From: Bacteroidales bacterium
Lineage (GTDB): Bacteria > Bacteroidota > Bacteroidia > Bacteroidales > UBA3663
Direction: 5' to 3'
DNA length: 64,000 bases
Assembly: GCA_017449065.1 (NCBI GenBank)
Contig: JAFSKF010000019.1
Coordinates: 56,952-120,951, forward strand
The notes under the pieces were generated by a model. The model was not told where the DNA came from and made no database searches. It was given only the letters and a program-made list of their open reading frames with translations. Position 1 is the stretch's first letter. Every line of letters begins with the position of its first letter. A program made the position numbers and the translations under genes. Shown here piece by piece: positions 14,349 to 35,427 of the stretch.

Positions 14349-15127
14349 AAAGATTTTTGGTAATCCTATCTATATTGATGCTTTTTTCGGTTTTGCCTCT
14401 GTCGGCTCAGGGACAGCGCAAAGTGCGTAGCCTGGACCGTAGTGGTAATGCCCACTATAATGACAGTCTTTATCACGATGCGGAAATGGATTATCGTCGT
14501 GCCTTGGCTATCAATCCCTCCGACAGTGTGGCTCGTTTTAATCTGGCAACTACGCTAATACAACAGCAGGATCAGGCCAAGTTGGCGGAAGCCGACAGTT
14601 TGCTGACTAACCTGATTACGGAAGCCGAGCAGACGGGAAACAGGCAACTGAGTGCACGCAGTTTGTATCAGAAAGGCGAGATTGCCATGATGGCACAGCA
14701 GTATCAGCAGGCAGCGGAGGCTTTCAAGGAGTCGTTGAAGCGTAACCCGACGGACGATGATGCCCGATTCAATTATCTGTTGGCAAAACGTCAGATGGAG
14801 AATCAACAGAATCAGGACCAGCAGAATCAAAACAATCAGGATCAGCAACAGCAGGACCAACAGGAACAGCAGCAGGATCAGAAGGAACAGCAACAACAGC
14901 AAGATCAGCAGCAACAGAATCAGGATCAGCAACAGCAGAACCAACAGGAACAGCAGCAGGAACAGCAACAGATGTCGGAAGACCAGCGTCAGTCGATTCT
15001 CGAACAGAATGAGCGGGAAGAGAAAGAGACGCAGAATAAGGTGATGCGACGTCAGCAGGAGTTGGATAAAGACAAGATGCGGGAGCGCGAAATACAAATC
15101 CAGAATGGTACTTTGAAGGATTGGTAA
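14345..15127 (+). CDS. batC: TPR protein BatC with a Gln-rich tail
   Basis: Signal peptide, TPR-like repeats, then a long Q/N/D/E low-complexity region. It is in the Bat operon position. Confidence 0.8.
   Translation: MKRFLVILSILMLFSVLPLSAQGQRKVRSLDRSGNAHYNDSLYHDAEMDYRRALAINPSDSVARFNLATTLIQQQDQAKLAEADSLLTNLITEAEQTGNRQLSARSLYQKGEIAMMAQQYQQAAEAFKESLKRNPTDDDARFNYLLAKRQMENQQNQDQQNQNNQDQQQQDQQEQQQDQKEQQQQQDQQQQNQDQQQQNQQEQQQEQQQMSEDQRQSILEQNEREEKETQNKVMRRQQELDKDKMREREIQIQNGTLKDW
14800..14990 (+). repeat. CAG/CAA-rich low-complexity coding repeat containing a 44-nt in-frame duplication
   Basis: 14834-14877 and 14918-14961 are identical at 43 of 44 positions and offset by 84 nt. The region encodes a QQNQDQQQQ-type tract. 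Confidence 0.9.
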
Positions 15128-26963: not shown

Positions 26964-27098
26964 CGAAAATGTAATGTTTAAAATTGCAAATTGCATTAGA
27001 AAGCATACAATATAATTAAACTTTTGCAATTTTATATTCGAAACAATGTAATTTGAGAATAATTTTGTATTTTTGCATCCGAAATAATATAATTTAGC
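26964..27098. promoter_or_regulatory. three operator-like direct repeats CGAAA(n)AAT(G/A)TAAT(G/T)TT upstream of the HTH gene
   Basis: Copies are at 26964-26980, 27039-27056 and 27080-27098. The last lies between the -7 box and the ATG. Confidence 0.45.
27068..27075 (+). promoter_or_regulatory. candidate -7 promoter box TATTTTTG for the hip-like operon
   Basis: Matches TAnnTTTG, 24 nt upstream of the ATG at 27099. Confidence 0.45.
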
Positions 27099-27302
27099 AT
27101 GGAAAAAACAAAATTATCGTCAGTTGTTAAAGCTTTGCGCAAGGAATATGGGCTTACCCAAGAAGACCTTGCCATGAAATCGGGAGTCGGGTTGTGCTTT
27201 GTGCGCAATTTGGAACAAGGGAAAGTATCGCTCAGAATGGATAAAGTGAACCAACTCCTCGACTTGTTTAATTACGAACTGACCGCAACGAAAAAGGTAT
27301 GA
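27099..27302 (+). CDS. XRE-family HTH protein (HipB-like)
   Basis: 67 aa with the HTH pattern LRKEYGLTQEDLAMKSGVGLCFVRNLEQGK. Its stop overlaps the next start (ATGA). Confidence 0.85.
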   Translation: MEKTKLSSVVKALRKEYGLTQEDLAMKSGVGLCFVRNLEQGKVSLRMDKVNQLLDLFNYELTATKKV

Positions 27303-27634
27303 GACAAGCCAAGATATACCGCAAAGGCATTTTTGCCGGCATCCTAACAGAAGATGGTGGTGAATATCGCTTCCGTTATGACAGTATGTATCTTGCACAA
27401 GAAGAAGCATTGCCAGTAAGCCTGACTTTTCCGTTGCAAGAAGAAGAGTTCGTGAGTCCTATTCTTTTCCCGTTCTTCGACGGGTTGATACCTGAAGGCT
27501 GGTTGCTTGATGTTGTCTTACGTAATACAGACATCAGTATTCTTGATCGTATGTCTCTTTTACTATTGTGTTGCAAAGAGTGTATCGGCTCCGTCAGTGT
27601 CGTTCCAATAGCTAATATAGAAGGTGAAGCGTAA
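27299..27634 (+). CDS. HipA N-terminal-subdomain protein (HipS-like)
   Basis: 111 aa. AKIYRKGIFAGILTEDGGEYRFRYDSMY...FPFFDGLIPEGW matches the HipA N-terminal 'couple_hipA' pattern, here encoded as a separate gene. Confidence 0.8.
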   Translation: MRQAKIYRKGIFAGILTEDGGEYRFRYDSMYLAQEEALPVSLTFPLQEEEFVSPILFPFFDGLIPEGWLLDVVLRNTDISILDRMSLLLLCCKECIGSVSVVPIANIEGEA

Positions 27635-28572
27635 TGTGTAAGTGTTTGTACTGCTATCAGGAATTGGAAGAAGGTCAAAAGGACTTTCATCCTCAATGTG
27701 TCAAAAAGTTCTTTGGAACAAAAGAACTACCGCTATTGGAATACCGGCAAAAAGAACTCGACCGACTGGCTGAGCAAGTAATCCGCGCTCAGACTTCACT
27801 AACTGGTGTTCAGCCCAAATTATCATTGAATCTCTCCAAACATGAAGGTTGCAGCCGGTTGACGGTCGTAGGTCTATGGGGCGATTTTATCTTCAAACCA
27901 CAGACAGATGACTATCCACAGCTGCCAGAAAATGAAGATTTGACTATGCATTTGGCCGAAGCTGCCAAGATAAATGTCGTGCCTCATAGCCTTATCCGAT
28001 TGGCAGATGGGCAACTTGGTTACATCACCAAGCGAATCGATCGTACGCAAACCGGAGAAAAAATCGATATGGAAGACATGTGCCAACTGACACTACATCC
28101 CACAGAATACAAATATAAAGGTTCATACGAACAGATTGCTAAAACCATCGTTCAGTATTGCAGCACACCGAAACTCAACCTCACAAACTACATGCAGTTG
28201 CTGCTCTTCTGTTTTGTCTCTGGAAATAACGATATGCATCTGAAGAACTTCTCACTCTATCGGCCTTATAAAGATTATCTGCTGACTCCAGCATACAATC
28301 TTCTCAATGTAGCTATTGCCAATCCCAAGGACAAGGAGGAATTAGCTCTTCCGCTTTCAGGGCGGAAGACAAAGCTACGTTTAGAAGATTTCCTAAATGC
28401 AGCCAAAATAATGGGATTGGATGAAAATGTGGTTCTTCATCTCATCGCCGGTCTTCAAAAAGCTCTTCCTAAGTGGCAGGAGCTCATACATGCATCATTC
28501 TTGAGTGAGGATATGAAAAACAGGTATGAAGAGCTCGTCATATCCCGACTGTCGCGCTTGCAAACTCTGTAA
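27634..28572 (+). CDS. HipA-family Ser/Thr kinase-like protein lacking the N-terminal subdomain (HipT-like)
   Basis: 312 aa with the P-loop-like SLTGVQPKLSL and the catalytic loop GNNDMHLKNFSL. The next conserved motif reads LTPAYNLL rather than PxYD. The N-terminus has the Cys/His cluster CKCLYCYQ...HPQC. TAATG start coupling. Confidence 0.8.
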   Translation: MCKCLYCYQELEEGQKDFHPQCVKKFFGTKELPLLEYRQKELDRLAEQVIRAQTSLTGVQPKLSLNLSKHEGCSRLTVVGLWGDFIFKPQTDDYPQLPENEDLTMHLAEAAKINVVPHSLIRLADGQLGYITKRIDRTQTGEKIDMEDMCQLTLHPTEYKYKGSYEQIAKTIVQYCSTPKLNLTNYMQLLLFCFVSGNNDMHLKNFSLYRPYKDYLLTPAYNLLNVAIANPKDKEELALPLSGRKTKLRLEDFLNAAKIMGLDENVVLHLIAGLQKALPKWQELIHASFLSEDMKNRYEELVISRLSRLQTL

Positions 28573-28576
28573 AATT

Positions 28577-28641
28577 CCAGAATCACCATATTTGTTGATT
28601 GAAGATTCAAATTTGAAATAGTTATTTCCTATCGAGTGAGG
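28577..28641 (+). repeat. imperfect direct repeat, copy B (downstream flank of the hip module)
   Basis: See copy A. It starts 5 nt after the hipT-like stop codon. Confidence 0.7.
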
Positions 28642-28697
28642 GTGATAATTTTGTTTGAACAATAGTACTAATTCATTTCTTTTACATAACTGTAATT

Positions 28698-29654
28698 TTA
28701 TCTATATTGAACTTCGTAGTGCCCTCCGTTACCACCACAGATAGTACATTTGCCGTTACCACCACATCTTGGACAGAGTCTGTCGTTATATCCCCATCCT
28801 GAACCATGACAATAGGTACATCTTCCTGGCTCAAACTGGCAACCGCCGCATGCTACCCACACTTGTACTGGGCCATGCTGCTCTACGACGACGGTTGTGG
28901 TTCCTCCGCTCTGTTGCTGTTGTTGTCCTGCATCAAGATTGTTCTGTGCTCCTTGACTCCGCCCTTCTGCCTCTGCCTGTGTCTCATGCCTATTGCCCTC
29001 CAGGGGGTTGTTAGTTGTGGTGAGGCGGCTCATGGCAAGGTCAAAAGCTGTACCGAAATCTTTTTGTTCCGCAGGCACAATGATTCTGCCATTGGCATCG
29101 GCAATACCACGATAGTGTTCTCCATTCTTTTTAACCATGAATGAGATAAAATAATGAACCTTCTCATTGATAATCATGGAACGGATAGAAATAGATAATA
29201 GGCTGTCAGCCTTTACAGAGACGACCTCCTTGCCGGTCCTGTCGCAGATGCCGCCGCCATCGGGTTTCTCAAAGGTGTAATACGTCCCAAACTCGTTATC
29301 ATCCCTTTTCTCAGTCCATGTATATCCCCTGCTATAGGGAATGACACACTTCCCACTTTTGCTGTACCACGCCCTAAATCCACCCTTCAAAGGTCCAAAT
29401 CCCTCCTCCAGCGGGTTTTCAGCAGAGCGATACCATATAAGATCATATTCCGTAGGGACTATCATGTTCCCATTGCGGTCTTCGGCTCCATACTTCTTCT
29501 GTCCATTGACGGTTCGCGTCACTTTATACCATTCAAAGCCGTCGTTCTCGACTATGTATTCTTTCTCTTGGGCAAAGGCCGCAGTGCCACTCATTCCTAA
29601 TGCCAGCACCAATAATAGTAATACTCTCTGTTTCATATTATTATCGGACTGCAA
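28698..29654 (-). CDS. exported WG-type-repeat protein with a C-terminal CxxCxGxG zinc-knuckle tail
   Basis: Signal peptide MKQRVLLLLVLALGMSGTAAFAQ. Three repeats follow (YGAEDRNGNMIVP, GICDRTGKEVVSV, GIADANGRIIVP), then a Q-rich linker and a tail with four CxxC pairs. Confidence 0.75.
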   Translation of the reverse strand: MQSDNNMKQRVLLLLVLALGMSGTAAFAQEKEYIVENDGFEWYKVTRTVNGQKKYGAEDRNGNMIVPTEYDLIWYRSAENPLEEGFGPLKGGFRAWYSKSGKCVIPYSRGYTWTEKRDDNEFGTYYTFEKPDGGGICDRTGKEVVSVKADSLLSISIRSMIINEKVHYFISFMVKKNGEHYRGIADANGRIIVPAEQKDFGTAFDLAMSRLTTTNNPLEGNRHETQAEAEGRSQGAQNNLDAGQQQQQSGGTTTVVVEQHGPVQVWVACGGCQFEPGRCTYCHGSGWGYNDRLCPRCGGNGKCTICGGNGGHYEVQYR

Positions 29655-29704
29655 TAATCATAAATACAAGTTTTGAGCTAAATCCATTTTAAAGATCTAA
29701 CACA

Positions 29705-30070
29705 TTACTTCTTAATGATATTACCACCGCCAAAAATTATGTTGATATTAATAATTGTTTCGGGGCTATGGTGGTTAGGGTCATATGGATTGTCGGAGTC
29801 TTCCGCATCATTTTTATTCTCTTTTTTAGTCTTGAATTTCCAAATTTCTTCTATAACGGCGGATATGATGGTTAGTATTTGTGGTAAATACTCCTTAAGA
29901 TTATCTATAGGAACATTTATACTGCCTTTTTCGACAGAAATTACACCATTGGCGTCTTGTGACGTGGTAATTAATACCTTAGAATCTCTTTCGGAGATTT
30001 CTATAGGCAAATATTTCTTTCCTCTCTTCATCTGTTTGATAACTTTGTTATCCTTTGCTTTTTGTTGCAT
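29705..30070 (-). CDS. hypothetical protein (121 aa, Lys-rich, no signal peptide)
   Basis: Co-oriented with its neighbours in the AT-rich operon. An antisense ORF (29715..30113) is also open, so coding-strand confidence is limited. Confidence 0.5.
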   Translation of the reverse strand: MQQKAKDNKVIKQMKRGKKYLPIEISERDSKVLITTSQDANGVISVEKGSINVPIDNLKEYLPQILTIISAVIEEIWKFKTKKENKNDAEDSDNPYDPNHHSPETIININIIFGGGNIIKK

Positions 30071-30133
30071 AATATTGAGTTTTAAGTTAGTTGAATTATA
30101 TTATACTGTTTGATAACGCAGGAGATGCAACAT

Positions 30134-30898
30134 TTAGTATTCTTGATACCCTCTTCCGTGACAGACGCTGCAAGTTACATGGCGGTGGAATGTTGTACTC
30201 CAGTATTCTGCGCCACATGTAGAGCATCTTTTCATGTAGCCACTGTTACCATAACTAGAGATTGAACCGTCATTTCTGACAATGCTGCCAGTACCGTGAC
30301 AGGCAGAGCAAGTGTGACGGGTTTTCTGTAGTTTGTCTCTTTCTGGACGATATGTGCTGCTGCCTGTGTTTCCACTTTGCCCACCATTATAAGTACCTCC
30401 ACCTGCATATCCACCTTGCGGATAAGTAGGAGGAACTGTATAGGACGGTGTATAACCACTTCCTCCACCACTTCCACCGCTTGATGGCTCTGGCTTGCGT
30501 ATAAGAGAACAAGTGGTTACGCCAGCGGGAGCCGTAGTACGCTTATAGACGTATATCTTCCCTGCATTCGTCTCAATGTTCATCACAGACTTGTCAGCAT
30601 TAAACTTCATATATGCATTCTTGCTCCAGTAGCACGAGCCCCAATAGGTTTTGAGTTGCTTACTGTTCTCCGCATCATACGACATCACTCCATTGCCAAC
30701 ATTATTCCCATACTTATCTGATTCAAAGCACTTATTTCCATCAAAGGTAATGAACTGTCCTCCACTCACATTAGTGTCATGCTTACCTTTGATAATGGAT
30801 TTTGTATACTGATAATAATAGGTTTGGGCATTGATGGTTTGCTCAAATACTATTAACAAAAGTAATGCAATACTAGATTTACTCATACATTGTTCCAC
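30134..30898 (-). CDS. exported protein with a Gly/Ser/Tyr-rich linker and a C-terminal CxxCxGxG zinc-knuckle tail
   Basis: Signal peptide (SSIALLLLIVFEQTINAQ). The N-terminal domain is homologous to the upstream 171-aa product. The tail is CSACHGTGS...CSTCG...CSVCHGRGY. The start may be the ATG at 30886. Confidence 0.75.
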   Translation of the reverse strand: MEQCMSKSSIALLLLIVFEQTINAQTYYYQYTKSIIKGKHDTNVSGGQFITFDGNKCFESDKYGNNVGNGVMSYDAENSKQLKTYWGSCYWSKNAYMKFNADKSVMNIETNAGKIYVYKRTTAPAGVTTCSLIRKPEPSSGGSGGGSGYTPSYTVPPTYPQGGYAGGGTYNGGQSGNTGSSTYRPERDKLQKTRHTCSACHGTGSIVRNDGSISSYGNSGYMKRCSTCGAEYWSTTFHRHVTCSVCHGRGYQEY

Positions 30899-31394
30899 TT
30901 GGGTTTCTTGAACGACCTAATTTGAAAAAACTCTTATCCACTCTTTTATATTTAATTACACCTGTCAAATTCGAAAAATCAAAAGATAAATAATGATACT
31001 CTGTCAGCATATTCCTATCTTTAGAAAATTTCCATATCATATGATTCTTTGAACCAGGAGCCCACTCGTAAGTAACTTCAGTTGAAGTAGATGAAATATA
31101 TTTAACAAGACTATAATCACGGGTTTCTGCATCTTCTACATAAAAATTGGAATTTTGACCGAGTTTCTTTTTTACATCAGTTATATAGTTTTCATACCAC
31201 CATACTCCATTGATTCCATCAAAATTAAGAATAAGGACTTCCGATCCATGATTATGCCCATGAGATTTATAATATCCGTTATCGTTTTCAAGAATATAGA
31301 AGCAGATGTCATCTGCACTGTCATAGAACTGAGCTTTCACTCCACTTGCAAGGCATATCGCCATGACAAGGAACAATAATCTTTTTGCTTTCAT
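30879..31394 (-). CDS. exported protein, paralogous to the N-terminal domain of the next gene
   Basis: Signal peptide MKAKRLLFLVMAICLASGVKAQ. It shares the motifs F(D)G, KF(S/N)xD(R/K) and YKR with the 254-aa product. Confidence 0.7.
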   Translation of the reverse strand: MKAKRLLFLVMAICLASGVKAQFYDSADDICFYILENDNGYYKSHGHNHGSEVLILNFDGINGVWWYENYITDVKKKLGQNSNFYVEDAETRDYSLVKYISSTSTEVTYEWAPGSKNHMIWKFSKDRNMLTEYHYLSFDFSNLTGVIKYKRVDKSFFKLGRSRNPSGTMYE

Positions 31395-31427
31395 AATCGT
31401 AATGTTTTTAAATTGTTAATAATGAGT

Positions 31428-31850
31428 TTATTCTTCCATATTATTATAAAGTTCTTCAAGCTTCTCCAATATAGGAGTGAACTTGTTTTCTATAATTCGA
31501 TTCACCTCGTTGCTCACTGTTTCGGTAAAGAACTTCATAAATTCTGGATCACCCTTTAGTTGTTTAAGAAATTCTTGGTAATCTATTCTTTGCGGTTTAG
31601 GATTATTCCACGTGTACCATGTTACAATAATGGATAACGCTGTCAATATCATCCCCATATTTTCCAGAGTTGCAACAAAATGTTGGTGCATACCTCCAGC
31701 ACCTATGTCTGGTATCACGGGAGGAAGTCCTTCTGAAATTCGGATTTCCATATTCTCCCTTTGCCTATGCGTAGTGGTCTCATACTCGTCAGGGAAAACA
31801 GACTCTGCTATTGTTTCTACTATTTCCCAGTTAATCTCTGATGTTTTCAT
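31428..31850 (-). CDS. hypothetical single-pass membrane protein (140 aa)
   Basis: Central hydrophobic segment MGMILTALSIIVTWYTW. Its start overlaps the stop of the protease gene by 4 nt. Confidence 0.6.
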   Translation of the reverse strand: MKTSEINWEIVETIAESVFPDEYETTTHRQRENMEIRISEGLPPVIPDIGAGGMHQHFVATLENMGMILTALSIIVTWYTWNNPKPQRIDYQEFLKQLKGDPEFMKFFTETVSNEVNRIIENKFTPILEKLEELYNNMEE

Positions 31851-33097
31851 ACCTCAACAAATTTTTTGTTAATGACGTTCTTTATATAGTCTGATTTAGC
31901 GATAACTGTACGTGCAGTTGTCCTCTTTATTATTACAACGAACAGCATCGGTATAATGCAAAGGAAAATGCACCACCATGGGAATTCAACGGCTTGGATT
32001 ACTTTGTCTGTTGCAAACCAAGCTACAAACATAAGTAACGGAAACACCAAATAGTACCAACCTGAGTTCCAAGTTGTAATCTTATCCTTAAAAGACTCTA
32101 TCCTTGGTGAATTCAATACTTGTTTTCTTACAATTTCAATTCTTTTTATTAATACTTTATTATCGGGATTATATTTCCTTTCAGAAACGAGACGCTCATT
32201 AAGTTTCGCAACGTATTTGTTCTTGTCATCTTCGCTCATAAAACGAGAAATGCTATATATCTCGTTCAACAAATAGCTATATTTACCATAATTCCTTAAT
32301 TGCTGGCTATCTAATATTTCAGCGATATACTTTTTGGCAAAAATCCTCGCCATTTTCCTCATTTTCTCTTTTCCGTAAAGGTGTTCAAATATCATGCAAG
32401 CCATTGCATCTGCCCCCATCTCAACTCTGGACTTTACATAGGCAGAGCTACAGATAATCATCAAAGCCATATATAATAGTAAACCCATAAATAGCAACCA
32501 CCATGAGTGGGACAGAACGGAAAAGATGACAATGATTAAGGAGAGAAGAGACGAATGTAATCTTGTAACAATTTGTCTCTGGCCAATTAAACTGTGTCCA
32601 ATGCAATGCGACATTTCGTGGAGCATTGTAAAGCGGTCGTTGTCTTCCTCTCCGTCAAAATCTTTATGAAGTAGAACAACTGATTCGTCATTGAAAAATG
32701 AATAAGATGTTGGCTCTCCACTTATAGCCTTACTAACATATACAGAAATATCTTTTGTTCCACACCTATTTCCCTCGTTATAAACCTTGAATTTTTGCAT
32801 TTCCTGCATATATAATTCTTTCAAGTTAGCATCTACGTCATCCAATTCAGAAAACAACAAGAAGTCGTGCCGCATTTCTGAGAATGTTTGTTTATATTTT
32901 AGCCATGCTGCATATACTAATATTGCGCCATCAAGACCAATACATAGCGGAAGTAGAAATGCGATAGAGTGGTTACTTACGGTCAATACTGCAATTATAA
33001 TAGATATGCAGAAAACGGACAAGACATTGTCCCACAAGGACGATAATTCATATAACATCCATTGAATCCAATTGTGAATAGTCTGTTGCATAATCAT
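31847..33097 (-). CDS. polytopic membrane zinc metalloprotease, M48/HtpX-like
   Basis: 416 aa. HEMSH (HExxH) is followed by two TM segments and then SRVEMGADAMA (an ExxAD third-ligand motif). There are two further hydrophobic segments at each end. Confidence 0.7.
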   Translation of the reverse strand: MIMQQTIHNWIQWMLYELSSLWDNVLSVFCISIIIAVLTVSNHSIAFLLPLCIGLDGAILVYAAWLKYKQTFSEMRHDFLLFSELDDVDANLKELYMQEMQKFKVYNEGNRCGTKDISVYVSKAISGEPTSYSFFNDESVVLLHKDFDGEEDNDRFTMLHEMSHCIGHSLIGQRQIVTRLHSSLLSLIIVIFSVLSHSWWLLFMGLLLYMALMIICSSAYVKSRVEMGADAMACMIFEHLYGKEKMRKMARIFAKKYIAEILDSQQLRNYGKYSYLLNEIYSISRFMSEDDKNKYVAKLNERLVSERKYNPDNKVLIKRIEIVRKQVLNSPRIESFKDKITTWNSGWYYLVFPLLMFVAWFATDKVIQAVEFPWWCIFLCIIPMLFVVIIKRTTARTVIAKSDYIKNVINKKFVEV

Positions 33098-33402
33098 TAG
33101 TTTGTTAAATTATGATATGAATGCAAGTGTAGGGGTACAAAGAATGGCGTGGCCACTCTTATGCACTTACCTAAGGGCATGTATGATATTTGGAATTCCT
33201 ACTACTGTAATAATATTGAAGAATTATGTTTAAGAATAATACCAGCAGACCGTCAACCACGACGAAAGCGCCTTTGCCGCTATTTGCAGCAAAAGAAAAT
33301 GTGAATCCAGTAAACTTTGAGAAGAAAGAGAGAAAAGGAACTACAAAATTTCTTGGAACTATGAAAGTGTCGCTGATTATCTCGCGCGAAGACCACAATT
33401 TA

Positions 33403-33411
33403 CCCCCCCCC
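33403..33411. repeat. homopolymer C9 (G9 on minus strand)
   Basis: Nine consecutive C residues read directly from the sequence. The tract lies between two out-of-frame minus-strand ORFs. Confidence 0.95.
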
Positions 33412-33536
33412 GTTCAGGTTTCGCAACCGAGGTTGCTAAGGGATTCGAAATTCTGAAGTCTGCGTTAATCATTTGTTGACTTGATTTAGGGATTTCACAT
33501 AATGCCGAATGGGATGCATCCTATTCAACATCGGTG

Positions 33537-33544
33537 CAAAAGTA
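33537..33544 (-). promoter_or_regulatory. candidate -7 promoter box (TACTTTTG on minus strand)
   Basis: The reverse complement of caaaagta matches TAnnTTTG. It lies upstream of the short ORFs and the six-gene operon. Confidence 0.35.
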
Positions 33545-33590
33545 TGCCATTATTTTGAATTGACCAAATTTTTAGCCGACTTTTTGCGTG

Positions 33591-33598
33591 CAAATATA
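33591..33598 (-). promoter_or_regulatory. candidate -7 promoter box (TATATTTG on minus strand)
   Basis: The reverse complement of caaatata matches TAnnTTTG. Confidence 0.35.
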
Positions 33599-33622
33599 TG
33601 AAATAATTTCGTTCTTTGCAAG

Positions 33623-33704
33623 AAATCGGGAATTTTTCCCTGTTTTTGACCTCTAAAATCGGGAATTTTTCCGGAATTTTCATGGTAGAAATCGGGAATT
33701 ATTC
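33623..33704. repeat. 3 phased direct repeats AAATCGGGAATT(T/A)TTC with a 33-bp period
   Basis: Copies start at 33623, 33656 and 33689. A conserved core of about 16-17 nt alternates with about 16 nt of variable sequence. Confidence 0.9.
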
Positions 33705-33770
33705 TTAAAAACGAGTTCCGCAAGTTTTTCCTGCTGACGTTCGGAAAAGCATCCCCGGGGCAAGAAAGAT

Positions 33771-33851
33771 TTGCGCGATGCCTATGAAAAGTTTGCGCGA
33801 TGCCTATCAAACAATTGCGCGATGCCTATCAAACAATTGCGCGATGCCTAT
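33771..33851. repeat. 4 phased direct repeats TTGCGCGATGCCTAT with a 22-bp period
   Basis: Copies start at 33771, 33793, 33815 and 33837, each an exact 15-mer. Copies 2-3 are full 22-bp units, TTGCGCGATGCCTATCAAACAA. Confidence 0.95.
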
Positions 33852-33900
33852 GCCGCAAATTTTCCTCTTCTTCGTCCTGTCTTTTCCAGAATAAGACACA

Positions 33901-35115
33901 CTATTTCAGGCGTTGGAAATAGAGGAGGGAGTCGGAGCTGTTTTCGCGAATACATTGCATCTCTTGCAGCATCACATCGGGACGGAAAGGAGTGGTTTCG
34001 AAGTAGTCGCTGATGGCCGTGTTGCAGCCGAAAACATTGCCTCGCTGTGCAGCCCGGAACTGCGCGAAAAGAGGATTCTGACCGATAAATTCCGAGAGTG
34101 TCCAATTCCGGTCGGGAGAGAAATATTTGATGATCCAGACATCGGCGGCTTGTGCCTTTTCGAAAACAGCTTCAGGCGAGAGCGCCAAAGAACCGCTATG
34201 CGTATCATCCGACCAGGGATAGCTGAATCCGGCGTCCTGATATAACCAGCTCATAGTGCTGCGTCCGCCAGGCACATACCAGGTGGCGCCGTAGGGCGAA
34301 TCGGCAAGCAAGGTGGGATGCGCCACCGAATCGGATGCTTCAGACAAACGCAGGTATTGCGTTTCCACCAGTTTGAAAATAGAATCTGCTATCGCTGCCT
34401 TATCCACTAAGCGTCCGTAAAAACGAACCCATTCCGCGCGTCCGAGGGGCGTGTTTTCCATGTAGTCGGCACAATAGATGACAGGCAGGTCGGGCAAAAC
34501 CGCTTGCATGACGGCTTGCGAGCTGCCTTCATACGGAGAAATCCAGATGGCTTGCGTTTGTGCCGCCAGCATCACCTCGACGTTAGGGGCAGTGGCTAAT
34601 CCGCCGTCCAGAATGGCGCCATTATCCAATGCATCCCGTAGCGTGCGCGAACTGATATAATCCGCATCGCACAGAACGCCGATGGTCTCCATGGCATCGA
34701 ACTCCTCCAGCAGGCGGGCGTGACAACAGGCCGTGACGGTTTGCCGCTGCAAAGGTGTGACAAGCACCTGCATTGGGCCGTATTCTTCTACCAGTTCATC
34801 GAGGAAGGCATCGGAAACGGTAGCCGAATCGGCCGCAGGAACCAAAATGTATTGGATAGCCAGCTTTCTGCCTTGCCAGGGATTCTGAATGCGACACAGG
34901 GTAAGGTGGTGGGGCAGATTCTGCATCTGAAGGAGAGAGGCATAGCGGGTGGAGGCTTCTGTGACGGCTAACGGTTCTTCCGGCTGGCGTTTGTGGCAGG
35001 AGACCGTCAGGAAAGCTGACAAAATAAAAGCAACTACGGCATAGAATGGGGTTCTGTGGCGAAAGTTTGCTTTCTTTTTTCTATTATGATTCGAAAAAAA
35101 CATTTTTCTATACAT
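33901..35115 (-). CDS. periplasmic-binding-protein-type ABC substrate-binding lipoprotein (BtuF/iron-siderophore-like)
   Basis: Lipobox FLTVSC. The overall pattern resembles the PBP type 2 (PF01497-like) family. No adjacent permease or ATPase. Confidence 0.6.
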   Translation of the reverse strand: MYRKMFFSNHNRKKKANFRHRTPFYAVVAFILSAFLTVSCHKRQPEEPLAVTEASTRYASLLQMQNLPHHLTLCRIQNPWQGRKLAIQYILVPAADSATVSDAFLDELVEEYGPMQVLVTPLQRQTVTACCHARLLEEFDAMETIGVLCDADYISSRTLRDALDNGAILDGGLATAPNVEVMLAAQTQAIWISPYEGSSQAVMQAVLPDLPVIYCADYMENTPLGRAEWVRFYGRLVDKAAIADSIFKLVETQYLRLSEASDSVAHPTLLADSPYGATWYVPGGRSTMSWLYQDAGFSYPWSDDTHSGSLALSPEAVFEKAQAADVWIIKYFSPDRNWTLSEFIGQNPLFAQFRAAQRGNVFGCNTAISDYFETTPFRPDVMLQEMQCIRENSSDSLLYFQRLK

Positions 35116-35275: not shown

Positions 35276-35303
35276 CGCCGTCAAACTTAAAAAGACACAA
35301 AAG

Positions 35304-35345
35304 ATGAATAACAGTCGTGCATATTGGTGGTGGCGGTGCTCATAA
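35304..35345 (+). CDS. trp operon leader peptide MNNSRAYWWWRCS
   Basis: A 13-codon ORF with three consecutive TGG codons (35325-35333). It sits between the promoter box and a terminator hairpin, directly upstream of trpB. Confidence 0.75.
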   Translation: MNNSRAYWWWRCS

Positions 35346-35392
35346 CTTAAACGTTGTGGGTTGCAACCCTATATGCATATAAAAGAGATAAG

Positions 35393-35427
35393 GGCTTGCG
35401 GGACACGACGTCTTGCGAGCCTTTTTT
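35393..35427 (+). terminator. rho-independent attenuator terminator
   Basis: GGCTTGCGGG / CTTGCGAGCC forms a stem of about 10 bp including G-U pairs, with a 9-nt loop, followed by TTTTTT (35422-35427). It lies 34 nt before the trpB ATG. Confidence 0.7.

What the first reader, a model, noticed from the sequence alone, without database searches (positions are those of the whole stretch)
33623..33851. Two phased direct-repeat arrays (3 x 33 bp and 4 x 22 bp) upstream of the island operon
AAATCGGGAATT(T/A)TTC recurs at 33623, 33656 and 33689, an exact 33-bp period. TTGCGCGATGCCTAT recurs at 33771, 33793, 33815 and 33837, an exact 22-bp period. Spacings of three and two helical turns put all the sites on one DNA face. 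That is typical of iterons or of cooperative binding sites for a regulator or recombination-directionality protein. The arrays lie just upstream, in the minus-strand sense, of two candidate -7 boxes (33591-33598 and 33537-33544). They sit at the island edge next to the core SBP gene, so they could be an upstream activating region for the six-gene operon. They could also be a vestigial replication origin or arm-type site cluster of a mobile element.
Basis: seen in the sequence. Interest (0 to 1): 0.6.

Follow-up and report, generated by a model that had tools for sequence, protein, structure and literature searches.

The report
Orphan defence-gene operator array plus a minisatellite
The three 33-bp-spaced repeats are protein-binding sites of a kind found in front of a very common candidate phage-defence gene (PDC-S01), here joined instead to an unrelated operon; the four 22-bp repeats are a separate, copy-number-variable minisatellite of unknown function.

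Summary
Both arrays are real, at the stated coordinates, and far beyond chance. The 33-bp array consists of three 21-nt sites (consensus CTCGGAATAATTCCCGATTTT, minus strand). They sit 35, 68 and 101 bp upstream of a Bacteroidetes-type promoter (TTG-N20-TATATTTG, 33621-33591) that reads toward the island operon. The same motif, spacing, orientation and promoter register occur upstream of AAA_14-DUF4143 ATPase genes (PADLOC candidate defence gene PDC-S01) in many Bacteroidales contigs. More distant PDC-S01 homologues (43-60% identity) keep three repeats at exactly 33 bp but with clade-specific motifs. This suggests, by inference only, that the ATPase binds its own promoter. The window carries such an array without any PDC-S01 gene in 64 kb. 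It replaces the promoter and the 5' two-thirds of the conserved leader that this operon has in other genomes. The 22-bp array is a separate minisatellite: near-identical strains carry 3 or 4 copies. Its 15-bp core is invariant and its spacers differ, and I found it nowhere else. Nothing supports iterons or integrase arm sites: there is no rep, integrase, tRNA or DnaA box.

The parts
33688..33708 (-). Distal operator site, TTAAGAATAATTCCCGATTTC; 101 bp from its AATTCCCGATTT 12-mer to the P1 -7 box
   Evidence: It scores 24.9 bits with a PWM built only from sites upstream of PDC-S01 genes. It is one of the top 3 hits in the window.
33655..33675 (-). Middle operator site, TCCGGAAAAATTCCCGATTTT; 68 bp to the P1 -7 box
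   Evidence: 27.0 bits, the best hit in the 64-kb window. The next non-array hit scores 12.8 and the maximum over 30 shuffled windows is 19.5.
33622..33642 (-). Proximal operator site, CAGGGAAAAATTCCCGATTTC; 35 bp to the -7 box, directly abutting the -33 TTG
   Evidence: 23.9 bits. The register matches L168/L170, where sites lie at 36/69/101/134.
33591..33621 (-). Promoter P1: TTG (33621-33619), 20 nt, TATATTTG (33598-33591). Bacteroidetes -33/-7 type; also TTGCAA-N17-TATATT
   Evidence: Sequence match only; the transcription start is not mapped.
33537..33568 (-). Promoter P2: TTTG (33568-33565), 20 nt, TACTTTTG (33544-33537). A 77%-identical direct duplicate of the P1 -7 region, 54 bp downstream
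   Evidence: (repeat family D5).
33771..33851 (.). 22-bp minisatellite: 4 invariant 15-bp cores TTGCGCGATGCCTAT with 7-bp spacers GAAAAGT, CAAACAA, CAAACAA. The core holds a GC-rich near-palindrome, ATTGCGCGAT in copies 3 and 4
   Evidence: TRF score 127. Strains carry 3 or 4 copies. No relatives were found.
33763..33866 (.). 13-nt inverted repeat (AGAAAGATTTGCG / CGCAAATTTTCCT, 85% complementary) bracketing the 22-bp array
   Evidence: (pair I7). RNA folding of the region is not significant.
33403..33411 (.). Homopolymer tract in the leader, C9 on the plus strand and G9 on the transcribed strand. L004 has 11, and contigs L001 and L002 end inside it
33101..33212 (-). The retained 3' third of the conserved operon leader, including the terminator-like hairpin GAGTGGCCACGCCATTC + TTTGT (33158-33142). 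Everything upstream of it differs from other copies of the operon
   Evidence: nhmmer E 3.4e-18, model positions 188-308 only. blastn homology to 97.5%-identical copies stops at 33177. Alignments A3 and A5.
28698..33097 (-). Six-ORF operon downstream of the promoters: a 416-aa polytopic HExxH membrane protein, a 140-aa TM protein, and secreted proteins with CxxC tails. No family assignment
33901..35115 (-). Upstream neighbour: lipoprotein-type periplasmic binding protein gene (Peripla_BP_2). Its stop codon lies 50 bp from the 22-bp array

Best explanation
The 33-bp array is an orphan copy of the operator array that normally sits in the promoter of AAA_14-DUF4143 ATPase-nuclease genes (PADLOC candidate defence gene PDC-S01). 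Three 21-nt, partly palindromic sites (consensus CTCGGAATAATTCCCGATTTT) lie 33 bp apart, about three helical turns. They keep a fixed register to a Bacteroidetes -33/-7 promoter (P1), and the proximal site touches the -33 element. A sequence-specific protein is expected to bind the sites cooperatively and set the activity of P1. That protein is most likely a PDC-S01-family ATPase encoded elsewhere in the genome; this step is inferred, not shown. In this species the module, followed by a duplicated promoter P2, has been joined to the 416-aa-gene operon. It replaces that operon's usual promoter and the 5' two-thirds of its conserved leader, so the operon would now be transcribed from a defence-gene-type promoter. 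The direction of control cannot be told. The geometry here, with sites upstream of -33, fits activation or upstream repression. In distant clades the sites overlap the core promoter, which fits autorepression. The 22-bp array is a separate element: a slippage-prone minisatellite between the binding-protein gene and the module. Its invariant GC-rich core may bind another factor, but the only property shown is copy-number variation.
For: (1) A PWM built only from 12 sites upstream of PDC-S01 genes ranks the three window sites first, second and third in 64 kb, at 27.0, 24.9 and 23.9 bits. The next hit scores 12.8 and the shuffle maximum is 19.5. (2) Loci fetched through protein homology, independently of the motif, carry 2-4 such sites in the same orientation and at 33-bp spacing: L166 at 88%, L167 at 84%, and L168-L175 at 78% identity. 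(3) The register to the -7 box is conserved. It is 35/68/101 in the window, 68/101 in L075, 69/102 in L166, 70/103/136 in L167 and 36/69/101/134 in L168 and L170. (4) blastn aligns 33623-33704 over about 82 bp with these arrays and with nothing else. (5) Sixteen distant homologues with the same domain architecture (43-60% identity) also carry three direct repeats at 33 bp, but with clade-specific motifs: TTGAAAAGTCA, TAGAAAAGTGTA and TTGGAAAAwTGTA. The dominant upstream self-similarity spacing is 33, 65 or 66 in 13 of 14 loci. (6) In a control of 2701 windows from 162 kb of Bacteroidales DNA, only this locus has 33 as its dominant spacing. (7) The PDC-S01 gene with its array moves as a 1.5-kb single-gene block into different contexts, so the ATPase is the only protein inherited together with the sites. 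(8) Only two TAnnTTTG boxes exist in the intergenic region. Both are on the minus strand and correctly spaced from a TTG. A/T-tract phasing at 33560-33710 lies in the top 0.1-1% of the window, as at other promoter regions. (9) The operon's usual promoter and leader are missing here.
Against: No PDC-S01 gene or remnant lies in the 64-kb window (tblastn), and the rest of the genome was not available, so a cognate binder in this organism is unproven. No DNA-binding domain was recognised in the ATPase: Pfam finds only AAA_14 and DUF4143, and the AlphaFold model was too poor to use (pLDDT 51.5). No transcription data exist. About 490 nt of leader, a variable homopolymer tract and a terminator-like hairpin lie between P1 and the first ATG, so read-through into the operon is assumed. 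All available strains are about 99.7% identical, so conservation within the species says nothing about function. The array could be an inert relic.
Confidence: 0.55

Rival explanations
1. Inert relic. The array and P1 are what remains of a PDC-S01 cassette that once sat next to the binding-protein gene and lost its coding sequence. They no longer regulate anything, and the operon is driven by P2 or another promoter.
For: The array is orphaned: no ATPase gene or fragment lies nearby. PDC-S01 cassettes insert in many contexts with sharp boundaries. The region is a recombination mosaic, with breakpoints at 33177 and about 33212.
Against: All three sites remain high-scoring (23.9-27.0 bits, within the 17.7-34.6 range of sites in front of intact genes). 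The spacing is exactly 33 bp and the register to an intact consensus -7 box is canonical. A decaying relic should have lost some of this.
Confidence: 0.22
2. Cassette-boundary or homing sites. The repeats are where the ATPase-nuclease, or a recombinase, acts to move the single-gene cassette. The window's array would mark a past insertion junction at the island edge.
For: In L075, L115 and L148 the conserved block starts 7 nt before the distal site and ends at the stop codon, with unrelated flanks. DUF4143 is classed as a PD-(D/E)XK nuclease fold (PMC3424549; weak NERD and Mrr_cat hits). The array lies at the low-GC island border.
Against: No matching sites occur at the 3' end of the cassettes. 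The conserved register to the -7 box, and the overlap with -35/-10 in distant clades, point to transcription. No recombinase is present.
Confidence: 0.1
3. Iterons of a vestigial replication origin, or integrase/RDF arm-type sites of a mobile element.
For: A contiguous 4 x 22-bp array has the classic iteron format (own knowledge of pPS10, R6K and RK2). One phage contig, L029, has CGGGAAT-type arrays next to a cluster of TGTGGAT DnaA-box-like repeats.
Against: No rep, integrase, relaxase or transposase gene lies in or beside the island. The window holds no tRNA, and 33098-33900 holds no DnaA box. Every strain contig shows the same chromosomal arrangement. The 33-bp motif sits in front of chromosomal genes in many genomes.
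Confidence: 0.03
4. For the 22-bp array alone: a neutral slippage minisatellite with no sequence-specific function, as opposed to a second set of binding sites.
For: Near-identical strains carry 3 or 4 copies, and the extra unit is an exact duplicate. No other instance was found in the window, in the fetched loci or in the viral collection. Unrelated intergenic arrays of 21-43 bp are fairly common in related Bacteroidales DNA. The array is absent from other copies of the operon and from PDC-S01 promoters.
Against: All 4 differences between the spacer types fall within the 7-bp spacer, while the 15-bp core is identical in all copies. By my calculation this has a chance of about 0.005 if differences fell uniformly. 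The core holds a near-palindrome, and the 22-bp period keeps the helical phase. A homologous operon in L033 has a 12-copy 22-bp array with a loosely similar core (GAGCAATGCTT versus GCGCGATGCCT).
Confidence: 0.5

Closest known systems
   Same: Same 21-nt motif (Bacteroidales clade), same 33-bp spacing, same orientation and same register to the -7 box.
   Different: No AAA_14-DUF4143 gene follows. A duplicated promoter, a ~490-nt leader and an unrelated six-gene operon follow instead.
Phased multi-site operators or activator arrays, for example BvgA sites at the ptx promoter (PMC7250471) and the directly repeated operators of P2-family phage repressors (PMC1904268); both appeared
   Same: Several similar sites in direct repeat, spaced by whole helical turns, adjacent to or overlapping the core promoter. 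The operator sequence differs between related systems, as in the heteroimmune P2 relatives.
   Different: The period is 33 bp rather than about 10.5, 21 or 22 bp, and it is conserved across phyla. The binder is unidentified, and the presumed binder is an AAA+ ATPase-nuclease rather than a small repressor or response regulator.
Archaeal Orc1/Cdc6 with origin recognition boxes next to its own gene (own knowledge)
   Same: An AAA+ protein gene preceded by several repeats of a long recognition element.
   Different: No evidence of replication function here. The genes are bacterial, chromosomal, single-gene cassettes, and the resemblance is from memory, not tested.
Plasmid iterons (pPS10, R6K, RK2; own knowledge)
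   Same: The 22-bp array consists of contiguous direct repeats with a two-turn period.
   Different: No rep gene, no DnaA boxes and a chromosomal location in all strains. The copy number varies freely.
Bacterial VNTR or contingency loci near promoters; a recent example from M. tuberculosis is PMC12817950, listed (abstract only read)
   Same: An intergenic head-to-tail array whose copy number differs between close strains, and a variable homopolymer tract in the same leader.
   Different: No phenotype or expression link is known. The unit changes do not alter the -33/-7 spacing.

Membership tests
PDC-S01-type promoter operator array (defined here) | Two to four direct repeats at 33-bp spacing | tested here: met
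   Three sites start at 33708, 33675 and 33642, exactly 33 bp apart. 33 is the dominant spacing in 13 of 14 PDC-S01 upstream regions when 65 and 66 are counted with it, and in no control window other than this locus.
PDC-S01-type promoter operator array (defined here) | Motif matches the clade consensus CTCGGAATAATTCCCGATTTT | tested here: met
   23.9-27.0 bits with a PWM that excludes the window sites.
PDC-S01-type promoter operator array (defined here) | Fixed register to the -7 box (about 36 + 33n bp) | tested here: met
   35/68/101 in the window, against 36/69/101/134, 70/103/136, 69/102 and 68/101 elsewhere.
PDC-S01-type promoter operator array (defined here) | Immediately followed by an AAA_14-DUF4143 gene | tested here: not met
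   tblastn of the ATPase against the window finds nothing (best E 5.6). The array is therefore an orphan.
Iteron-type replication origin | Adjacent rep gene | tested here: not met
   No Rep-like family was found in the island ORFs or neighbours.
Iteron-type replication origin | DnaA boxes next to the repeats | tested here: not met
   No TTATCCACA match at up to 1 mismatch between 33098 and 33900.
Iteron-type replication origin | Supports autonomous replication | not testable with these tools
   Needs a replication assay.
Integrase/RDF arm-type site cluster | Tyrosine or serine recombinase gene, and an att core (often in a tRNA) at the element end | tested here: not met
   No integrase family hit, no tRNA in the window, and no strain with an empty site.
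Bacteroidetes primary-sigma promoter (-33 TTTG / -7 TAnnTTTG) | TAnnTTTG with a TTTG or TTG 19-21 nt upstream | tested here: met
   P1 is TTG-N20-TATATTTG and P2 is TTTG-N20-TACTTTTG. These are the only two boxes in the region.
Bacteroidetes primary-sigma promoter (-33 TTTG / -7 TAnnTTTG) | A mapped transcription start | not testable with these tools
   Needs 5'-RACE or dRNA-seq.
VNTR / minisatellite (22-bp array) | Head-to-tail repeats whose copy number differs between close strains | tested here: met
   4 copies in the window and L001, 3 in L004 and L002.
VNTR / minisatellite (22-bp array) | Copy number affects a phenotype (contingency locus) | not testable with these tools
   Needs expression comparison of the 3-copy and 4-copy alleles.
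Structured RNA (Rfam family or new) | Significant fold or covariance-model match over the arrays | tested here: not met
   No Rfam match at E<=1 in 33098-33900. Folding z-scores are -0.48 (minus strand) and -1.89 (plus strand).

The most novel reading that the evidence does not exclude
PDC-S01 AAA+ ATPase-nucleases are sequence-specific DNA binders that assemble on 33-bp-phased sites in their own promoters, with specificity co-evolving clade by clade. Orphan arrays such as this one would then plug other accessory operons into the same control. The most abundant candidate defence gene of gut and rumen Bacteroidales would thus double as, or be wired to, a regulator of unrelated island genes.
Probability: 0.25. 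Interest if true: 0.7.

Novelty: new variant of a known kind. Interest (0 to 1): 0.55.

Why it matters
PDC-S01 is reported as the most frequent single candidate defence locus in rumen genomes, with 10,358 occurrences (PMC13356809), yet nothing is known about how it works or how it is controlled. A conserved 33-bp-phased repeat array in its promoter, with clade-specific motifs, gives a concrete and testable handle on that question. It predicts the DNA sequence the protein or its regulator recognises, and it can be checked by EMSA or DAP-seq. The orphan array in this window shows that the module can be recombined in front of other genes. That would be a simple route by which accessory operons acquire defence-type regulation. 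For genome annotation, it also shows that phased repeats at an island edge need not mean an origin or an att site.

Tried and rejected
1. Viral-collection scan for paired GCGCGATGCCTA. Of the 11 hits, the two I read that have a 30-nt period (L010, L011) are pentapeptide-repeat coding sequence (LRDAYL...), and the ≤2-mismatch scan shows the same CTGCGCGATGCCTAC context in the others. The exceptions are L012 and L016, which are a different high-GC sequence with a 32-nt period. All are unrelated.

2. blastn of 33100-33900 against the plasmid and phage collections: no match.

3. Genome-contig scan with the binding protein: only four distant Bacteroidales MAG loci (47-56% identity), none with either motif.

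4. Search for a strain with an empty site, through exact-protein look-ups of the binding protein, the 416-aa protein and the AlkZ-related neighbour: all contigs show the same arrangement or break at the homopolymer tract.

5. tRNA-fragment idea for TTCGAATCC near 33450: ARAGORN finds no tRNA, and no T-arm can be drawn.

6. RNA reading of the arrays: no Rfam hit and no significant fold.

Most are unrelated repeat families, namely a soil 'TAATCGGGAATT-N10-TAATCGGGAATT...AACCGGGAA' family, GGGAATT microsatellites, 41-bp repeats and a 17-bp satellite in L082 and L096. Only L075, L115, L118 and L148 proved relevant.

8. Phage look-alikes L025, L029 and L128 share the CGGGAAT(T)TTT theme at 22- or 42-bp periods. 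I kept them as leads only.

9. Are arrays an integral part of the 416-aa operon? No. L030, L031, L035, L156 and L158-L162 have none, and L033 has an unrelated 12 x 22-bp array about 600 bp upstream of its promoter. The similarity of its core to the window's core is suggestive but not significant.

10. AlphaFold model of the PDC-S01 ATPase, run to look for a winged helix: pLDDT 51.5, with residues 219-399 below 50, so no fold search was made.

11. Literature search for the motif strings: only a PCR primer and unrelated hits.

12. Upstream regions of other ATPase families (PDDEXK_9 in L030, ATPase_2 in L166): no comparable arrays.

Full report
OBSERVATION

The intergenic region 33098-33900 lies between two minus-strand genes. 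One is a lipoprotein-type periplasmic binding protein gene (33901-35115, Peripla_BP_2). The other is the first gene of a six-ORF operon (31847-33097, a 416-aa polytopic membrane protein with an HExxH motif).

AAATCGGGAATT(T/A)TTC occurs at 33623, 33656 and 33689. TTGCGCGATGCCTAT occurs at 33771, 33793, 33815 and 33837. Neither motif occurs elsewhere in the window at up to 2 mismatches, and no shuffle reaches these counts.

SETTING

The stretch from about 27000 to 33900 has 36-43% G+C, against about 50% around it. It holds a hipB/hipS/hipT-like toxin-antitoxin set (27096-28572, plus strand) and the six minus-strand ORFs, none of which has a family assignment. The window holds no tRNA. The island and its neighbours hold no integrase, transposase or Rep. 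The intergenic region holds no DnaA box.

The only two TAnnTTTG boxes in the intergenic region are on the minus strand. Each has a TTG or TTTG exactly 20 nt upstream:
- P1 is TTG-N20-TATATTTG (33621-33591).
- P2 is TTTG-N20-TACTTTTG (33568-33537).

P2 is a 77% direct duplicate of the P1 -7 region. A/T-tract phasing over 33560-33710 is in the top 0.1-1% of the window, as it is at other promoter regions.

STRAIN COMPARISON

Contigs with identical or near-identical proteins show the same arrangement, with two differences:
- The 22-bp array has 4 copies in the window and L001, but 3 in L004 and L002.
- The homopolymer tract at 33403-33411 has 9 bases here and 11 in L004, and contigs L001 and L002 end inside it.

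The 33-bp array is identical in all of these contigs. I found no strain lacking the island.

THE 33-BP ARRAY HAS RELATIVES

A metagenome scan for two copies of AATCGGGAATT mostly returned unrelated repeat families. Four contigs (L075, L115, L118, L148) were different: they carry AAAATCGGGAATTATTC and AAAATCGGGAATTTTG exactly 33 bp apart.

In all four, the pair lies upstream of an AAA_14 + DUF4143 ATPase gene and in the same orientation to the gene as in the window. This protein matches the PADLOC candidate defence model PDC-S01 at E 1.7e-179. PDC-S01 is reported as the most frequent single candidate defence locus in rumen genomes (PMC13356809).

L075 and L115 share a 1517-bp block at 95.7% identity. 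The block starts 7 nt before the distal site and ends at the stop codon, and its flanks are unrelated. The gene and its upstream sites therefore travel as a single-gene cassette.

INDEPENDENT CONFIRMATION

I fetched orthologues through protein identity alone, without using the motif: L166 (88%), L167 (84%) and L168-L175 (78%, next to dnaE). All of them carry two to four sites at 33-bp spacing.

The aligned sites give the consensus CTCGGAATAATTCCCGATTTT, a partly palindromic element of the form TCGGAAT..ATTCCCGA. I built a PWM from the 12 ATPase-gene sites only and scanned the window with it:
- The three window sites rank first, second and third, at 27.0, 24.9 and 23.9 bits.
- The next hit scores 12.8.
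- The maximum over 30 shuffled windows is 19.5.

The distance from each site to the -7 box is also conserved:
- window: 35/68/101
- L075: 68/101
- L166: 69/102
- L167: 70/103/136
- L168 and L170: 36/69/101/134

blastn aligns 33623-33704 with these arrays. Nothing else in 33178-33900 matches any fetched locus.

A FAMILY-WIDE FEATURE WITH CLADE-SPECIFIC MOTIFS

Sixteen more distant homologues (43-60% identity) have the same AAA_14 + DUF4143 architecture. They lack the window's motif, yet each shows three direct repeats at 33-bp spacing within about 100 bp of the start codon:
- TTGAAAAGTCA in L176-L179
- TTGAAAAGT in L180-L185
- TAGAAAAGTGTA in L186-L189
- TTGGAAAAwTGTA in L190 and L191

In these clades the sites overlap the -35/-10 or the -7 box. 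The L168-type sites (CGGAAAAAGTCCCGA) bridge these motifs and the window's motif.

The dominant self-similarity spacing upstream of 14 homologues is 33 (or 65/66) in 13 of them. In a control of 2701 windows from 162 kb of Bacteroidales DNA, only this locus has 33 as its dominant spacing.

The cassette carries a single gene, and the motif changes with the protein. The simplest reading is therefore that the ATPase binds its own promoter. This is an inference. No DNA-binding domain was recognised, and the structure model was too poor to use.

WHAT THE ARRAY IS DOING HERE

The window has no PDC-S01 gene or remnant. Other copies of the 416-aa-gene operon sit in different genomic contexts:
- L159-L162, at 97.5% DNA identity.
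- L030 at 78%; L033 and L035 at about 73% DNA identity.
- L156 and L158, which are more distant.

These copies share their own -7 box and a leader of about 300 nt. Homology to the window stops at 33177 for the close copies, and at about 33212 for a profile of the leader.

So in this species the operon's own promoter and the 5' two-thirds of its leader are replaced by 33213-33900. That segment carries the 22-bp array, the PDC-S01-type array, P1, P2 and the homopolymer tract.

I conclude that the operon now sits behind a promoter module borrowed from a defence-gene cassette. Whether the module is active, and in which direction it regulates, is not shown.

THE 22-BP ARRAY

This element is distinct from the 33-bp array.
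- Its 15-bp core is identical in all four copies. The 7-bp spacers fall into two types that differ at 4 of 7 positions. By my own calculation this has a chance of about 0.005 if the differences were spread evenly over the unit.
- The extra unit in the 4-copy strains is an exact duplicate.
- The core contains a GC-rich near-palindrome.
- A 13-nt inverted repeat brackets the array.
- RNA folding is not significant.
- I found no relatives.
- Unrelated intergenic arrays of 21-43 bp are fairly common in related genomes.
- A homologous operon in L033 has an unrelated 12 x 22-bp array further upstream.

I treat it as a minisatellite whose function is open, with roughly even odds between a neutral repeat and a second set of binding sites.

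COMPARISON WITH KNOWN SYSTEMS

The 33-bp array works like a phased operator array and passes three of the four features of the PDC-S01 promoter array as I defined it here. It fails the fourth, because the gene is absent.

It is not an iteron origin, an arm-type site cluster or a structured RNA. The defining features of each were tested and not met.

I found no published description of the PDC-S01 upstream arrays, but the literature search covers only open-access text.

VERDICT

The finding is of moderate interest. It is ordinary as a kind of element: binding sites upstream of a promoter, plus a VNTR. It does expose a conserved and apparently undescribed 33-bp-phased promoter architecture in a very abundant candidate defence gene family, together with an orphan copy recombined in front of another operon.

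Noticed in passing
window 33403-33411: A homopolymer tract (C9 on the plus strand, G9 on the transcribed strand) in the operon leader. It has 11 bases in L004, and contigs L001 and L002 end inside it. It may be a slipped-strand phase-variation site or merely a sequencing and assembly trouble spot.
   Followed up: partly
L033 1925-2252, L035 228-555, L030 9690-10003, L161 1185-1494, L156 385-687, L158 62-328; window 33101-33212 keeps only the 3' third: A conserved leader of about 260-300 nt upstream of the 416-aa-gene operon family. RNAalifold predicts 66 pairs, 17 of them with compensatory changes among 6 sequences, and the leader ends in a terminator-like hairpin (GAGTGGCCACGCCATTC + TTTGT). 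There is no Rfam match. It is a candidate new cis-regulatory RNA.
   Followed up: partly
window 27096-28572: A three-gene hipB (HTH_3, 68 aa) / hipS-like (Couple_hipA, 111 aa) / hipT-like (HipA_C, 312 aa) set at the other end of the low-GC island. It has the HipBST-type split-kinase toxin-antitoxin layout.
   Followed up: no
L075 9219-10735 versus L115 5396-6911; also L148 and L118: The PDC-S01 ATPase gene with its upstream sites forms a 1.5-kb block (95.7% identical) inserted in unrelated contexts, with sharp ends 7 nt before the distal site and at the stop codon. L118 has an extra 81-bp insertion right at the 5' boundary. The mobility mechanism is unknown.
   Followed up: partly
L159-L162 (for example L159 1860-3392): In copies of the operon whose first gene is 97.5% identical to the window's, an IS (DDE_Tnp_1_2 / DUF772 transposase, 510 aa) is inserted between the 416-aa gene and the next gene. 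The operon there sits beside an acetyltransferase rather than the binding-protein gene.
   Followed up: no
L033 1069-1327: Twelve copies of a 22-bp tandem repeat (CAGAGCAATGCTTTATATGGCA) lie between a flavodoxin-like gene and a homologous operon. A hairpin-rich stretch of about 600 bp follows before the operon's promoter.
   Followed up: partly
L029 about 1020-1200 (IMGVR_UViG_3300015371_000305); L025 2440-2490 (IMGVR_UViG_3300033149_002731): Phage contigs with CGGGAAT(T)TTT-type arrays. In L029, three 42-bp units lie next to a cluster of TGTGGAT (DnaA-box-like) repeats, which looks like a phage origin. In L025, 22-bp units lie between a phrog_36 transcriptional regulator gene and a TTGCAA-N18-TATAAT promoter, ahead of an HNH endonuclease gene.
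   Followed up: partly
L038, L041, L043, L057, L060, L068, L071, L078, L083, L084, L086, L090, L094 and others: Many soil metagenome contigs (57-66% G+C) share CGTAGC-N6-TAATCGGGAATT-N10-TAATCGGGAATT-N10-GAACCGGGAA, a conserved 22-bp-phased triple site of unknown meaning. It came up only because it shares the 11-mer used in the scan.
   Followed up: no
L082 and L096 (Ga0316610 contigs): Satellite-like DNA: units of about 155-170 bp, each holding 2-5 copies of a 17-bp CAAAATCGGGAATTTTG sub-repeat, filling the whole contigs.
   Followed up: no
window 35281-35400: A sub-threshold match to the Bacteroidete tryptophan peptide leader RNA (RF01692; 33.7 bits against a gathering score of 49) just upstream of the trp operon that starts at 35413. 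It is plausible in context.
   Followed up: no
L008 8407-8691; L007 2411-2500 and 13359-13410: Other intergenic tandem arrays in related Bacteroidales MAGs (43 bp x 6.7, 42 bp x 2.1, 22 bp x 2.4), some directly upstream of genes. All periods are close to multiples of a helical turn.
   Followed up: no
window 14799-14971: Imperfect CAG/CAA-rich tandem repeats (periods 15-36). I did not examine whether they lie in a coding sequence.
   Followed up: no
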